In this document: one piece after another, positions 30,001 through 54,000 of the stretch
Layout of the letters: each line of letters opens with the position of its first letter
Numbering within the stretch: the stretch's first letter is position 1
From: Perna viridis
Lineage: Eukaryota
Length of the DNA: 64,000 nucleotides
Assembly: GCA_037379345.1 (NCBI GenBank)
Contig: CM074512.1
Coordinates: forward strand, 17,608,001 to 17,672,000
Direction of reading: 5' to 3'
Program-made: the position numbers

Positions 30001-33000
30001 GCTTTTTGGAATTGTAGCAATTTAAGAAGCAACACTTTGAAAGAAAATCCCTCCTATAGCTGCCTACATGAAGTGACATTGTGTGACATTTATTGAGGAA
30101 AAGTCAAAATTTAAATGTAAAACAGCAACCTAATGAATACACAATATCATTCTTGGCAATATACATTCAGTTTTACTTGTATAACACTATGAAATATATA
30201 AATATTTCTACATTTTTTTTCTTTGGGGGGTTTCACAAAGGTTTAAAATCAGGAGTTTTTATCAGGAGTTTCTCATGAAAATTAAGGAAGAAATCAGGAA
30301 TTGCTTAAAATCATGAAAAATCATGAAAAATCAGGAATAAATATGAAAATCAGGAGTGGCTTGACAGACTGCCATTAAAGAAACTTTAGAATATGGTCAA
30401 AGATATCTTGCCCAAGCCTAAAATCAATTATCACCCTGACTTAAAACTTGGACGAACTTATCATTGCCCAACCATGAAATCAATTATGATAAGGCACACC
30501 TTTGTAAAGTTTGTGTCAAAAAATAAAGTGGCTGTGACAAGTAATTGCCGAGAAAGGTCACAGACAGACAAGGATAAAATATGCTCTGAAGTATAGTGTG
30601 GAAAATATTTCCCATCAAAATGGTAAACAAATTGCATTCTCTTAAAACTAACTCCTTCACCAGAGATAAGTATACTCTCTGTTTTAGAATAGCTTAGTAA
30701 GCAGCTGGAAGTAGAATGTAGCCTTCAGTCATAGAGTATCTACACCAAGAGTAACAAATTTTTATCAGGTGTCAATCACACAAATTATTGTTCAAATCTG
30801 TTATGATTGTAATCTGATGATATGTGGCATTCAATAGATGCTTTTCAAGATAAAATGTCCCCCAGTTAATACAATGTCATCATGTTGAATCTTGGTGGTA
30901 GAATAGTTTAACCAATCATTCCTCAGGATTTTACATTAAATATTCCTTTAACTCATTCAGATAGAAGTGTTGTAGATTAAAAACTTTCATCATAAATTTA
31001 GAAAATGAGTTTTAAATTTGTACAAGTTTTTTTTTTATTTCAATGCAAACTTTTGCAAAAAAAAGGCTTCACTCAAAAGTTAATACAACCAATAAAATGC
31101 ATACAAGGATGACCATTTGTCCAGTTAAGATAAATATATCACTACAACAATAAAGTAATATACTGGTCCAACTACAATGTTGAAGTAATTCCCCTTCAAG
31201 ATCAATACTTAGAAAAATATCTTAAGGTTATTTTGATCAATTATAACTTGATAATTGGGATTGATGGATCACTCCAAATCCACTGCTTTTAACTGAGAGG
31301 CATGCATCAAACAAGATACCTGCCTGTTGAAACAAGATTATTTTATTCAGGTTGAACTAAGTCAATACACAGATCTAATTACAATATTTGCCAATACCTT
31401 TACCTGAACATTAATTACAATTATAGTAAATTTGATATTGACACTGGAGCACCATTGATTTATACTATTATGGAACTAACAAAACTGTCAAGGATGTTGA
31501 TGGATCAAACTGTGATTACAGATTTAATGTAATGTTAGGTGTGAAATTAATTAAATGAACAACTCAACTAATTACACTGAAAAAATAAATAATAGTATCA
31601 CTGAATAGTGGTGCAGAACATGGCTTATAGAAGTTCTACAATTATCAAACATGAAAAGCAGTGAACAAACAAATAACTGTCCACTCATCAGTATACTTCT
31701 TTTTATGATATTCTGATTTCCTTTTTTTTTGTGCCAACAAGTACTGTAGTTCATTTAAAACATCAAAATCTTAACTTTTCTTCAGTTACAACCATAACAG
31801 ATAGAGTATTTACAAAGTTCTCACTAAATTTTACCATATCTTATAATACAAACCTGTTTAAGGTAACTGTTCATCCAGTTTGTGAATGTTTTCTTTTGTA
31901 CTCTTTCTTGTTCATCTAGAAAACAGGAGTACAGTCTTGATTAGTAAATAGTAACTTTTACCTAAGTGTCTACATGAAATCAGGATTTGAGAATGGAAAT
32001 ATTGCTTTTCTTAAGAAGTTTTCAAGTAAAAGTTTATTTTTGTTTATGTGAAATGAATACAACAAATTAATCATGTGGAAGAAAAATGGAAGCAGTTTAT
32101 AAGTTTATTAAAGGGTAGATGTATTGATTTGATTAAAGAAAGGCTGATTTGAGTAAACAGCTGTCTTAAACTGACATACAGATGCTCTTTGTCAGTACTA
32201 TAAATGAAAAAGTTTTGTAAACTATAAATTATCATTAACCACCTGATAACCCCAACTTTCACTTTCCCTGGTGTTAATCTGAATAATACTAGTCAACAAA
32301 TCATCAAAATTCAATAATTTAATAAGCAATATATTACTAGAGAAATTTCTAAACTATCTCCCTTGTTTAGCAACTTCATTGTTATATGTCCTATTGTAGT
32401 GTCCACTACTACAACTATCATAACACTTCTAACTACCTGCCAATCTAATTAACTTCATTACAAGTGATTATATTATTGATTTACTTATAGATCTTCAGTT
32501 AATATATATATAATTTATCATCATGTCAAAGAAACTACAAATAATGACACACAAATATCTCACATCAAATGGACCCTAAAAAAATCCATAATAAAATCTC
32601 AACTTCAATTGTTCCACAAATTTATTGCCTTTTAATCATTCAAGAAACATTAAAATTTCATTTGACTTATTTCCATCATGTCAGCATTTTTCCAATTATT
32701 TCAGTACATTACTATGTTAAATCCCAGTCTGTCACTGTTAAAGTAATCTTGCACAATGTTTTTCTCATGTTTTTTTTATGATTTCTAACTGTAACATGAA
32801 ATTTCGGCTGTGGGAGAATTCAGTTATGCAAAATCTGTCTACAAAGAAAGTTTGGCTGATTTTTTTAACAGATTAAAAGGTCATTTCTTTGATAAAATGG
32901 CAATTTAGCACATCTACATGCTCACACCAATTGAAAATGATCAAAAATTTTTCCTGTACATACAAGAATATAAGAATGAATGTATAAAATCTTAAGTGTG

Positions 33001-51000: not shown

Positions 51001-54000
51001 CCTGTGAGGTAATAAATGTAATATCAATAAGATAATTTACATGAGAAGTAGTTCTTTGCCCCATCTCACATAAAAATCTCAAATTCAATTGTCCTTCTAT
51101 CATTCTTCAATTCTATTTTCAACCAATCAGATTGCTTGAAATTGAGGATTTGAGGAACAAAATCACAACTTGAGAATTTTTAAAGAAACTGGATACAGAT
51201 GTAATTCTTGAATTGTGGTAAAAATCATACAGGGTAAAGACTACTTATAAGAAGCTTGTTGCACCGAAACATTCAATATTGTATTCGAAATATTGGAAAG
51301 TCAGCTTAAATTTTGCAATGACATATTTACAACTGATCATAAACTCAGGTTAATTAGAAAATGTAATAATAGTTTAATTAGTTAAATAATTCCAATAATT
51401 AATTTCTCAATACACACCAGAGTAAAGCTAGACTCAATGAACTGTTGTGACAAACATTATGATATGATTGTATAATGGACTCCTGTGAATGGAGATCTCT
51501 TGCTTAATAAATCAGTTTTACAGATCAATTAAATTATGAAAGGATGAGCAGAGGATTACAACCAATCCATATAGAGTAGAAAATTATGGATCAATGGTTG
51601 GAATTCACGGAAATAAAATTATTTCAGGGTAGGTGAAAATTGGTGTATTACTATCAACAAAGAACCAAATCAGACAGGTCTTTCATCAATACAAATTATA
51701 GGTACCTGGAATTATCCATCCAGTTTGAGAACTTAGACAAATATTCAAACTTTCAATGGTGGAGATGTACAATTTATTCAATGTGTATAGGTATGAATAT
51801 TTTATAAACCTAGGAACCTTGACTAAACTTATTATAAAGCACATTGGCAAAGTTTGACAATTTATAGATTAAGGACAAAAGACTTATTTGACCTTTGATT
51901 GGACTCTTTAACTAAATAAATTTTAGAGCCTTTCTTCTACATGCAGAGCCTTGATTAAATGTTTTCAAACTCAATGTTTTGAATAAAATGTATCTCTATT
52001 TGAAAGATGGCATTTAATTTTCCCTCTGCAGATATGGCTTGGTATTTTAAACAATTTGGATTTAGTCCAAAAGAAAGTTTCCAGACATTCAGGTCTCAGA
52101 TCATTATGTGTTATGCATGTAATAATTTCTTTTTGGAGAATATTACTACACAAATTGTCAACTATATGGTATTCAAGATTTGATGGAAACTCTATGGCTG
52201 GTCAGTTTATTATAAGAAACCTAAAAGAACATTTGCTGTCATGTGAAAACAGCAAACGTGGAACCAAAAAGTTGTATTTTTCAGGGTCACTCAGGCCAAC
52301 AAAAAAAATACCTGTGTTTCTACTAACATTCTTTAAAAAACTAGGGCTGGTAGGTAAGCAAAACTTTTTGACTGATTTGTTTTGTAGACACATTCAGACT
52401 TTAATTGCGTGTGTCAAAAAATGGCAAAAAAACTTTAGGGTAAGCACAAAAAGTTAGGGTTGGAAGGGTTAGCAGACACACAGGCATTCTTTTAAGCCTT
52501 ATAACACAGCATATCACAATAAATGGTTTACTCTACATTATTCCTTTCTTCTTGGCCAAAACAACTTACTTGCTAACTGCTGGATTTGCATCTGAATGCC
52601 AGCTCCCTTCTTGCTCCCATCTGTAGAGGACCTGGGGGTGCTAGGTGGAGTAGCCCCAGACAGGGAGGACAGTGAACCTGAATGCCTTCGTTCCATCCTA
52701 TGTTGTCTTGTTGTCAATCTAACATGTTTCTAACTCCTGTTCAATGATAAAACAATAGCTGCCTTAAACACAATTACACAAGTAGTGCATAAAGATTTAA
52801 ATAGTAAACTAGCAACCATGAAGCCTATCACATACCAAAGAATAATTCCATACAAAATGGGGACTGGTAGTTTTGCTAATAATGACTTTAATCAGCTTAA
52901 AATTAAATACAATAATAGAAGTTAAAAGAACTGTAACATATTAGAATTATTCAATATCCAACACAGAGAGTCTGAGTATTTGTTTATGTATTTTTAATAA
53001 CAAATACATACCATTTAAATGAAGCTAGTGCTAATGAGATGTGTAATGTACATTAATAATTCACCTGGATTTTTAAAACAAGTGCAAATTACTGGTACAA
53101 AATCGAAACTAACGCACAGCAAGTTGTATTATGTACCTACATAAAACTGTCAATGAACAGATAAAAAAACATGGTCAACTTGACAATATAATACCATTGG
53201 TTACCTAAACATGAAATAGTTTACACCTACCCAAAGGTACATCAATACTTTCTAACAAACTTACCTATTACTGCTATAATGTCCAGAAGTTGGAATATTC
53301 ACTTTAAAATCATTCAATACAAGTCATTGACTAGGTGTTGTGAACATACAAATACCATATACCTATAAATGAACATAATTTCTATACAGATTCATGTTGA
53401 GACACGAAATGTTATATCACCAATAAAATACCTGTGAGGAAAATCAAACAGGATTAATCAAAATGCAAGTTAAAAAAGATAAAGAAACATTTAAATCTCG
53501 GGTAATCAAATACAAAGTTGGTGCCATTTAAATTAGAGAAAGGTTTCAATCAACATTTTCAGTTCATAGATTCCAAGGAATATCAAACATTGTTCTAAAA
53601 GGAACGATCATATGAACTTGTAAACAGAAATACAAATGCAAACCTTCCTAATAGCAGTAACTATTTTGGCATGGTTCCAGTCACACCTATTTTTCTTACC
53701 ACATCATTAGAAAAATTTTCACCTTGTTAGTCCTGAATTATAATATTTTTCATTCAATACACACAATATTTAACACATAAGGTCTAAGTATGAATATCCT
53801 GCACAAATACAATAACATCTTTATAGTGATCGGGTGCAGGTTGTCACATGACAAAACTTAATATCGGTACAATGTCCATGGAATAAATATATGTTACCCC
53901 AGAAACAATTAACAATAATAAGAAAGTAGTTTTCTCATCTGGCAGGTCCTCTGGGAAATTTTGGCACCTACTGACAAGCCTGTCATCAACCACAGAAGCT

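What the first reader, a model, noticed from the sequence alone, without database searches (positions are those of the whole stretch)
31854..52736. Set of alternative ATG-bearing first exons giving the nesprin actin-binding domain swappable N-termini
Seen: three short ORFs (52570-52696, 42005-42077, 34557-34626) each start at an ATG with an in-frame stop upstream, end in a strong donor, and are exactly 3n+1 long. Each therefore splices in frame to the same CH1 exon (31854-31915), giving ...QQLA-N-EQERVQ, ...QNYE-D-EQERVQ or ...VLSLK-D-EQERVQ. None is in the ORF track. Known: variable first exons spliced onto a common actin-binding domain are a hallmark of plectin, dystonin/MACF1 and dystrophin. 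Inference: this mollusc-type nesprin uses multi-promoter N-terminal switching, which would explain the 20-kb intron. Exon 1c is the weakest of the three.
Basis: partly seen in the sequence, partly recalled or inferred. Interest (0 to 1): 0.68.

Follow-up and report, generated by a model that had tools for sequence, protein, structure and literature searches.

The report
Three alternative nesprin start exons
A mussel nesprin gene carries three interchangeable start exons, each also found in other bivalves, that put a different short head in front of the same actin-binding domain, as plectin and dystonin are known to do.

Summary
On the minus strand, three short ATG-started exons all end in GT donors one base past a codon: 1a 52696-52570, 1b 42077-42005, 1c 34626-34557. 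All therefore fit the phase-1 acceptor of the first CH1 exon, 31915-31854.

The pattern alone is not significant for 1b and 1c (about 0.39 such ORFs expected per phase in the 20.6-kb intron, P(>=2)=0.09). Comparison with relatives settles it.
- 1a is the N-terminus of Mytilus edulis "SYNE1" (38/42 identical).
- 1b matches residues 1-24 of a Pecten maximus isoform X2 (13/24, ungapped).
- 1c matches residues 1-23 of a Pinctada imbricata protein (18/23).

Among 119 comparable heads, no other protein resembles 1b or 1c.

The gene is nesprin-like: tandem CH domains plus Pfam Spectrin_SYNE1 at 119 bits. The KASH end lies outside the window.

Separate promoters, use in this species and function remain inferred. 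This is a new member of a known kind (plectin, dystonin, Drosophila Msp300). Interest is moderate.

The parts
52570..52696 (-). Start exon 1a, coding part: ATG plus 42 codons plus 1 nt. The head is Ser/Thr/Pro-rich and ends in ...IQQLA. The exon may begin at the acceptor-like site 52736.
   Evidence: sequence, phase, donor; 38/42 identical to the N-terminus of M. edulis SYNE1 (P0001); weaker gapped match to Dreissena polymorpha P0002; acceptor-like site at 52736; in the model of P0001, residues 1-29 have pLDDT below 50 and a helix runs from 31 to 64 into CH1.
42005..42077 (-). Start exon 1b: ATG plus 24 codons plus 1 nt.
   Evidence: 13/24 identical and 18/24 similar, ungapped, to residues 1-24 of Pecten maximus isoform X2 (P0152), E 2e-8; tblastn E 3.5e-6; end-anchored score 71 against 10 for the next best of 119 heads.
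34557..34626 (-). Start exon 1c: ATG plus 23 codons plus 1 nt.
   Evidence: 18/23 identical and 22/23 similar, ungapped, to residues 1-23 of Pinctada imbricata P0153, E 1e-10; tblastn E 3.3e-9; score 93 against 16 for the next best.
31916..52569 (-). The 20,654-nt interval between 1a and the common exon. It holds 1b and 1c.
31854..31915 (-). Common exon E2, the start of CH1 (EQERVQKKTFTNWMNSYLKQ), with a phase-1 acceptor.
29138..29227 (-). E3, part of CH1.
   Evidence: (Pfam CH).
25711..25791 (-). E4, part of CH1.
25176..25268 (-). E5, end of CH1.
24626..24750 (-). E6, the linker between the CH domains and the start of CH2.
23279..23475 (-). E7, the core of CH2.
   Evidence: Pfam CH, 56 bits..
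22459..22685 (-). E8, the end of CH2 and the following linker.
21896..22207 (-). E9, the first rod exon after the actin-binding domain.
21298..21579 (-). E10, a rod exon. It is present in the Dreissena and Pinctada proteins and absent from the M. edulis model.
19926..20456 (-). Rod exon with the nesprin-type spectrin repeat.
   Evidence: PF25034 Spectrin_SYNE1 at 119 bits (cut-off 35) on window:19890-20480:-..
1..19925 (-). Further spectrin-repeat rod exons. The gene runs off the low end of the window.
   Evidence: ORFs. (weak Spectrin and Spectrin_SYNE1 matches); collinear with Pinctada P0153 down to 8795.

Best explanation
The window holds the 5' part of a nesprin-1-like (SYNE1 / Msp300 type) gene of a mytilid-like mussel, on the minus strand. 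Three mutually exclusive translation-start exons lie upstream of the first exon of its tandem-CH actin-binding domain, in the order 1a, 1b, 1c. Each carries its own ATG, ends one base into a codon, and splices to the same phase-1 acceptor at 31915.

The gene can therefore make three proteins that differ only in a short head.
- 1a, 42 residues: predicted to be disordered and Ser/Pro-rich, then helical.
- 1b, 24 residues.
- 1c, 23 residues.

All three heads end in a stretch that continues the first helix of CH1.

Shown: the exons, their phases and their conservation in three other bivalve orders.

Inferred:
- Each head is transcribed from its own promoter. I put this at about 0.55; the alternative is choice by splicing from a shared leader exon.
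- The heads are used in different tissues or stages.
- As in plectin and dystonin, the heads tune where the actin-binding domain docks or how it binds.
For: - Sequence anatomy and phases.
- Junction 1a to E2 is present in the M. edulis SYNE1 fragment P0001.
- The 1b-type head is at residue 1 of P. maximus isoform X2, with the same length and the same junction.
- The 1c-type head is at residue 1 of P. imbricata P0153, with the same length and junction. That protein is collinear with the window gene over 32 tblastn segments.
- Empirical null: of 130 proteins examined, 119 carry the CH1 start motif. Only P0152 resembles 1b (71 against a next best of 10) and only P0153 resembles 1c (93 against 16).
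- Of 111 heads searched against the window, only these landed on 1a, 1b and 1c.
- The four species belong to Mytilida, Pectinida, Pterioida and, for the 1a type, Myida. By established knowledge, intron sequence would not stay alignable at that distance.
- All three ATGs have R at -3 and G at +4, found at 42/440 intron ATGs.
- 1b and 1c each have an in-frame stop upstream. They therefore cannot simply extend a reading frame coming from 1a unless an internal acceptor is used.
- Models of P0152 and P0001 run a single helix from the end of the head into CH1: residues 14-46 and 31-64.
- CpG observed/expected is 0.43 in the 2 kb upstream of 1b, against 0.20 for the whole intron.
Against: - No transcript, start-site or protein data exist for this organism.
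- The bare ORF-plus-donor pattern is not significant (P=0.09).
- In the searchable proteins (71-2000 aa only), each relative shows one head. Co-use of several heads in one species is therefore shown only by their co-residence in this window.
- P0152 and P0153 are computed gene models whose own evidence I could not see. P0152 is a 401-aa product whose last ~20 residues look like an out-of-frame reading of the E9 equivalent.
- An out-of-frame ATG lies 5 nt upstream of the 1b ATG, in a poor context.
- There is no CpG enrichment upstream of 1c (0.13). The only clear CpG-rich stretch that is not repeat-like is at 59.7-60.5 kb, which fits a single distal promoter.
- 1a against Dreissena gives no BLASTP alignment once composition is corrected.
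- The head parts of both structure models have low confidence: pLDDT 47-59 and below 50.
Confidence: 0.8

Rival explanations
1. There is one promoter and alternative splicing. A shared non-coding leader exon, perhaps near the CpG-rich stretch at 59.7-60.5 kb, is spliced to 1a, 1b or 1c. The heads are then chosen by splicing rather than by separate promoters.
For: - An acceptor-like site at 52736 (13/20 pyrimidines) lies 40 nt before the 1a ATG.
- The only CpG-rich stretch that is not repeat-like is at 59700-60500, with observed/expected 0.83.
- An acceptor-like AG lies 86 nt before the 1b ATG.
- CpG is not enriched upstream of 1c.
Against: - The acceptor-like sites before 1b and 1c have short, poor pyrimidine tracts: 9/20 at 42163 and at most 11/20 within 120 nt of the 1c ATG.
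- CpG is about twofold enriched upstream of 1b.
- The known precedents use separate promoters. This last point is recalled knowledge for plectin; four start sites are stated for Msp300 in passages of PMC8616381.
Confidence: 0.17
2. Only 1a is used in this species. 1b and 1c are conserved remnants or serve another role, and the database N-termini are artefacts of gene prediction.
For: - There is no expression data here.
- P0152 and P0153 are predicted models, and P0152 has an odd C-terminal tail.
- The only close (Mytilus) relative found carries 1a.
Against: A prediction artefact cannot explain why independent models in two other orders pick peptides of the same length that align without gaps to ORFs in this intron, with intact ATG, open frame, phase and donor.
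Confidence: 0.03
3. 1b and 1c are chance ORFs next to chance donor-like sites.
For:: P(>=2)=0.09 for the pattern alone; 12 weaker phase-1 candidates exist at donor score 7 or above.
Against:: specific, end-to-end, ungapped matches to the N-termini of orthologues, found for no other candidate.
Confidence: 0.005

Closest known systems
Plectin (PLEC): about a dozen alternative first exons spliced into common exon 2 before the actin-binding domain
   Same: Several ATG-bearing first exons are joined to one common exon at the start of a tandem-CH domain. They give short isoform-specific heads. In plectin the heads dictate localisation (passages of PMC8391331). The plectin and MACF1 actin-binding domains are the best solved-structure matches to the relative P0001.
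   Different: This is a different family. No plakin domain or plectin repeats were found on the 18 window pieces scanned. There are three heads rather than about twelve. Their localisation roles here are unknown.
Dystonin / MACF1 isoforms 1, 2 and 3
   Same: Unique N-terminal regions in front of a shared actin-binding domain differentiate the isoforms and dictate subcellular localisation (passage of PMC3279385).
   Different: The dystonin heads include a transmembrane domain and a putative myristoylation motif. I did not run a transmembrane predictor, but none of the three heads shows a long hydrophobic stretch by eye. Function is untested.
Drosophila Msp300 (nesprin-1 orthologue)
   Same: Same gene family. 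Passages of PMC8616381 state four transcription start sites (exons 1, 3, 18, 21). They also say that CH-containing isoforms split into those with exon 2 and those with exon 3, which amounts to alternative 5' ends in front of the CH domains.
   Different: Two 5' alternatives for CH-containing isoforms are described, against three here. I made no sequence comparison of the fly heads with 1a, 1b or 1c. I read passages only, not the figures.
Vertebrate nesprin-1 and nesprin-2 alternative initiation
   Same: Many isoforms arise from alternative 5' and 3' ends (passages of PMC3388047).
   Different: The 5' UTRs described in the passages I read are internal ones that remove the CH domains, for example first coding exon 83. 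They do not swap heads in front of the domain. The supplementary tables of that paper were not available to me and may list more.

Membership tests
Nesprin-1/2 (SYNE, Msp300, ANC-1) | N-terminal tandem calponin-homology actin-binding domain | tested here: met
   Pfam CH on window exons E7 (56 bits) and E3 (21.6 bits, below the curated cut-off of 26), and on the relative P0001 (161 bits, two stretches). Exons E2-E8 are collinear with P0001, P0152 and P0153.
Nesprin-1/2 (SYNE, Msp300, ANC-1) | Rod of nesprin-type spectrin repeats | tested here: met
   PF25034 Spectrin_SYNE1 at 119 bits (cut-off 35) on window:19890-20480:-. Weaker matches on three further rod ORFs.
Nesprin-1/2 (SYNE, Msp300, ANC-1) | C-terminal KASH transmembrane domain | not testable with these tools
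   The gene runs off the low-coordinate end of the window, and no more of the contig is available.
Nesprin-1/2 (SYNE, Msp300, ANC-1) | Closest named relatives are nesprins | tested here: met
   Named relatives include SYNE1 [M. edulis], SYNE1 [M. coruscus], and nesprin-1-like [Saccoglossus, Anneissia, Pollicipes]. One close relative is auto-named 'spectrin beta chain, erythrocytic-like' (P0152), but it is collinear with this gene through E9.
Genes with alternative first exons before a CH actin-binding domain (plectin / dystonin type of 5' architecture) | Two or more mutually exclusive ATG-bearing exons in the same phase, joined to one common first exon of the domain | tested here: met
   127, 73 and 70 nt, all 3n+1, and one phase-1 acceptor at 31915.
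Genes with alternative first exons before a CH actin-binding domain (plectin / dystonin type of 5' architecture) | Each head exon is kept by selection | tested here: met
   heads are shared with M. edulis, P. maximus and P. imbricata.
Genes with alternative first exons before a CH actin-binding domain (plectin / dystonin type of 5' architecture) | Each head exon has its own transcription start or promoter | not testable with these tools
   Only indirect hints are available: CpG observed/expected upstream is 0.28, 0.43 and 0.13, plus the acceptor scan.
Genes with alternative first exons before a CH actin-binding domain (plectin / dystonin type of 5' architecture) | Transcripts with each junction observed in the organism itself | not testable with these tools
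   No RNA data were available. In relatives, each junction is present in a deposited protein.
Genes with alternative first exons before a CH actin-binding domain (plectin / dystonin type of 5' architecture) | Heads confer different localisation or binding | not testable with these tools
   There are only low-confidence models of two relatives' heads.
Plakin / spectraplakin family (plectin, MACF1, dystonin) | Plakin domain (spectrin repeats with an SH3), plectin repeats or GAR domain after the CH domains | tested here: not met
   On the 18 window pieces scanned, only CH, Spectrin and Spectrin_SYNE1 were found. True plakins among the hits carry PF17902 and PF21019 (P0157 and P0158). The parts of the gene outside the window were not seen.

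The most novel reading that the evidence does not exclude
Pteriomorph bivalves, and perhaps a wider group, have kept a fixed three-head code on the nesprin actin-binding domain since before mussels, scallops and pearl oysters split. On this reading the 1a head is the ancestral, phospho-regulated one; 1a-like ends also occur in a snail, rotifers and a hemichordate. The 1b and 1c heads would be later additions that send the giant protein, or a short CH-only product like the Pecten one, to different actin structures. This would be a nesprin counterpart of plectin's head-directed targeting. The invariant Cys at position 6 of the 1b head could be a lipid-anchor site.
Probability: 0.25. Interest if true: 0.55.

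Novelty: new member of a known kind. Interest (0 to 1): 0.4.

Why it matters
Nesprins link nuclei and organelles to actin. Their isoform diversity is usually described as internal promoters that remove the actin-binding domain. Here the domain itself gets three interchangeable heads, and each head has been kept across bivalve orders. That points to head-specific roles that nobody has examined in molluscs. I found no paper on it: two full-text searches ('nesprin' with 'bivalve', and 'nesprin' with 'Mytilus') returned only incidental mentions.

Practically, it shows that the 20-kb first intron is not empty, and that gene models with a single N-terminus under-annotate this locus.

It is also a useful caution for the scan. 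The pattern statistic alone would have dismissed 1b and 1c. Comparison with relatives rescued them.

Tried and rejected
- **Pattern statistic.** It was not significant for 1b and 1c. I first leaned towards 'chance' and dropped that view.
- **Pfam on the three head peptides.** No family.
- **Solo search of 1b.** The 1b ORF cannot be lengthened without crossing stops, so 1b was searched only as a row of alignment A1.
- **The listing of cluster members.** I therefore could not see the other two members of the Pecten cluster or the isoforms of any relative.
- **Length limit of the protein searches.** They covered only proteins of up to 2000 aa. Giant isoforms, which may carry these heads, were not seen.
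- **BLASTP of 1a against Dreissena P0002.** No alignment. Only tblastn without composition correction aligns them.
- **Self-similarity of the three exon regions within the window.** None, so they are not repeat copies.
- **tRNA and Rfam scans.** Nothing.
- **Pfam on 15 ORFs in the intron and upstream region.** Nothing above cut-off.
- **CpG profile as a promoter proxy.** Suggestive for 1b only.
- **Acceptor scan.** Not decisive.
- **Collections not usable.** The collections left open (genome contigs, phages, plasmids, E. coli) hold no animal genomes and were not searched. DNA-level conservation in other bivalve genomes therefore stayed unchecked.
- **Joined exon model.** None was built or searched. 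Exons were searched one by one.
- **Supplementary files of papers.** Not available.

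
Full report
**1. The observation**

The gene lies on the minus strand. Reading the four stretches and checking them by script confirms every stated fact.

| Exon | Coordinates | Length | Content | Donor | In-frame stop upstream |
|---|---|---|---|---|---|
| 1a | 52696-52570 | 127 nt | ATG, 42 codons + 1 nt | CAA\|GTAAGT | TAG at 52732 |
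| 1b | 42077-42005 | 73 nt | ATG, 24 codons + 1 nt | AAG\|GTTAGT | TGA at 42101 |
| 1c | 34626-34557 | 70 nt | ATG, 23 codons + 1 nt | AAG\|GTAAGC | TGA at 34677 |

The common exon is 31915-31854 (62 nt). It follows the acceptor ttttctag and needs one base from the exon before it. The split codon then reads N after 1a and D after 1b or 1c, followed by EQERVQKKTFTNWMNSYLKQ. None of the three appears among the ORFs of 60 aa or more. The window has no N and is 31% G+C.

**2. Is the pattern more than chance?**

Taken alone, no. I counted ORFs in the 20,654-nt interval that start at an ATG, run at least 60 nt and end at a donor matching at least 8 of 9 positions of MAG|GTRAGT.

- The needed phase holds 2 such ORFs (1b and 1c).
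- Phase 0 holds 1. It uses the same donor as 1b and an ATG 5 nt further upstream.
- Phase 2 holds 0, and the antisense strand holds 1.
- Three hundred first-order Markov simulations gave 0.39 per phase and P(>=2)=0.09.
- At donor score 7 or above there are 12 phase-1 candidates.

At this point 1b and 1c looked like possible chance ORFs. One small point favoured them. All three ATGs have a purine at -3 and G at +4, a context found at 42 of 440 ATGs of the intron. The out-of-frame ATG at 42082 lacks that context.

**3. Relatives settle it**

I searched exon by exon.

*Exon 1a.*
- The peptide, searched against proteins of 75-2000 aa, gave 1 hit among 95 candidates. This was P0001, 'SYNE1 [Mytilus edulis]', 630 aa.
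- P0001 starts with the 1a peptide (38/42 identical) and reads ...QQLA-N-EQERVQKK.

*Exons 1b and 1c.*
- The CH2 exon (window:23277-23480:-) gave 15 hits among 41 candidates. Two of them carry the other heads.
- P0152 is 'spectrin beta chain, erythrocytic-like isoform X2 [Pecten maximus]', 401 aa. It begins with a 24-residue head that aligns without gaps to exon 1b: 13/24 identical, 18/24 similar, E 2e-8. DEQERVQKK follows.
- P0153 is 'hypothetical protein FSP39_003323 [Pinctada imbricata]', 1724 aa. It begins with a 23-residue head that aligns without gaps to exon 1c: 18/23 identical, 22/23 similar, E 1e-10. DEQERVQKK follows again.
- P0153 is collinear with the window gene in 32 tblastn segments, from 34626 through 31916 down to 8795. 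P0152 is collinear from E2 to E9.

*A wider null.*
- I used the last protein search on an alignment of the two relatives' first 40 residues plus the two window exons. It gave 158 hits at E<=10 among 608 candidates; 120 were listed.
- Of 130 proteins then examined, 119 carry the CH1 start motif.
- End-anchored scores to 1b were 71 for P0152 and at most 10 for all others. Scores to 1c were 93 for P0153 and at most 16 for all others.
- I then searched 111 heads of at least 10 residues against the whole window. Only P0001 and P0002 landed on 1a, only P0152 on 1b, and only P0153 on 1c. The remaining hits were weak, carried stops or were low-complexity.

The named species belong to Mytilida, Pectinida and Pterioida within Pteriomorphia, and Dreissena belongs to Myida. 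By established knowledge, intron sequence does not stay alignable across such distances. Intact ATG, length, frame and donor therefore indicate coding constraint.

**4. The 1a type is the widespread one**

Heads that are Ser-rich and end in G-I/L-x-x-x-I-Q/H-x-L-Q/A before N/D-EQE occur in these proteins:
- Dreissena polymorpha (P0002)
- the snail Candidula (P0155)
- a transcript-derived protein (P0164)
- two rotifer proteins (P0211, P0198)
- a hemichordate protein (P0182)

The Dreissena match is weak. tblastn without composition correction gives 47% identity with gaps (E 7e-5), and BLASTP with correction finds no alignment. The 1b and 1c types were seen only in the scallop and the pearl oyster. 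That search reached only proteins of 71-2000 aa, so the giant isoforms of annotated bivalves were not examined.

**5. What the gene is**

- P0001 maps to the window exon by exon.
- I fixed the boundaries of E2 to E10 by reading the flanks. All have AG/GT and consistent phases, and each exon is open in its frame.
- Pfam finds CH on E7 (and weakly, below the curated cut-off, on E3), and PF25034 'Nesprin-1, spectrin repeats' at 119 bits (cut-off 35) on window:19890-20480:-. There are weaker matches further down the rod.
- The best solved structures for P0001 are the actin-binding domains of MACF1, plectin and beta-spectrin. No nesprin domain appears among the 60 solved-structure matches listed (66 matched).
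- No plakin domain was found on the 18 window pieces scanned.
- The KASH end cannot be tested, because the gene runs off the window.
- Per-exon identity to M. edulis is 82-97% in the actin-binding domain but 56% in the next rod exon. The source is therefore a mussel related to Mytilus but not that species. I did not try to name it.

**6. How it most likely works**

Shown: three mutually exclusive start exons feed one acceptor.

Inferred from precedent:
- In plectin, about a dozen first exons splice into exon 2, and the heads dictate localisation (passages of PMC8391331).
- In dystonin, the unique N-terminal regions dictate localisation (passage of PMC3279385).
- In Drosophila Msp300, four start sites are stated, and CH-containing isoforms split into exon-2 and exon-3 groups (passages of PMC8616381).

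AlphaFold models of two relatives (16-row alignments) add some detail.
- The 1a-type head of P0001 has pLDDT below 50 for residues 1-29, then a helix from 31 to 64 that continues into CH1.
- The 1b-type head of P0152 forms a low-confidence hairpin (residues 4-13, pLDDT 47-59), then a helix from 14 to 46 into CH1.
- No protein of 1200 aa or less with a 1c head was available to model.

By eye, all three heads keep hydrophobic residues at positions -3 and -6 before the junction, as do other nesprins. This fits a shared helical extension with variable tips.

**7. Promoters**

This point is untested.
- CpG observed/expected is 0.21 for the whole window, which fits a heavily methylated gene body.
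- It is 0.20 for the intron, and 0.28, 0.43 and 0.13 for the 2 kb upstream of 1a, 1b and 1c.
- It is 0.83 at 59700-60500.
- Exon 1a has an acceptor-like site at 52736, 40 nt before its ATG. The sites before 1b and 1c are poorer.

Separate promoters remain the likelier reading. A shared leader exon with a choice of splice site is a live rival.

**8. Limits**

- Exon 1b could not be searched alone.
DNA-level conservation therefore stayed unchecked.
- Supplements of papers were closed. Tables S1 and S2 of PMC3388047 may bear on whether vertebrate nesprins also swap heads.
- Several unnamed representatives look vertebrate and might be human. Apart from a print of their first residues, they were not used.
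- No contig here was taken for human.

**9. Verdict**

The claim of several promoters is unproven, and 1c is the best conserved head rather than the weakest. The arrangement is a new member of a known kind. The heads already sit unremarked in public protein records of other bivalves. Two full-text searches found no paper on it.

Noticed in passing
window 39755-40088: This stretch of about 330 nt has CpG observed/expected 1.28 in an otherwise CpG-poor intron. It contains repeated 'GCGAAAAT'-like motifs and short inverted repeats. It looks like a young inserted element rather than a promoter. No Pfam match on the overlapping ORF.
   Followed up: partly
window 54439-55199: Three diverged head-to-tail copies of a unit of about 321 nt lie 2 kb upstream of exon 1a. 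Tandem Repeats Finder reports nothing at score 80 or above. The translated unit resembles the junk-like head of an unnamed 92-aa protein, P0186, so it may be a widespread repeat.
   Followed up: partly
window 59700-60500 and 52736: This is the only CpG-rich stretch that is not repeat-like (observed/expected 0.83). It lies 7 kb upstream of exon 1a. Together with the acceptor-like site at 52736, it suggests a non-coding leader exon and a main promoter there.
   Followed up: no
window 42082: An out-of-frame ATG lies 5 nt upstream of the 1b ATG and stays open to the same donor. It would run into a stop in the CH1 exon. It has a poor start context (T at -3, A at +4), whereas the 1b ATG has a good one.
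   Followed up: partly
window 21298-21579 (E10): This 282-nt in-frame rod exon is present in the Dreissena and Pinctada proteins but missing from the M. edulis model P0001. It is either a cassette exon or a gap in that model.
   Followed up: no
P0152 residues 382-401, compared with window 22207-21896: The last ~20 residues of the Pecten isoform X2 resemble an out-of-frame reading of the E9 equivalent (judged by eye). In that record, therefore, the 1b-type head sits on a short CH-only product of uncertain reality.
   Followed up: partly
P0005 (unnamed, 293 aa): This is a fourth kind of head (27 residues ending ...KQLA before NEQERIQ) on a closely related actin-binding domain. It has no counterpart in this window. 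It may belong to a paralogue or to another species' own exon.
   Followed up: partly
P0003 (SYNE1 [Mytilus coruscus], 619 aa): This model begins with about 70 hydrophobic residues unrelated to nesprin and joins the gene only at the E6 equivalent. It is probably a chimeric or mis-started gene model.
   Followed up: no
whole window: CpG observed/expected is 0.21 overall, and 0.17 in the gene body against 0.34 upstream of exon 1a. This is consistent with strong germline methylation of this gene body.
   Followed up: partly
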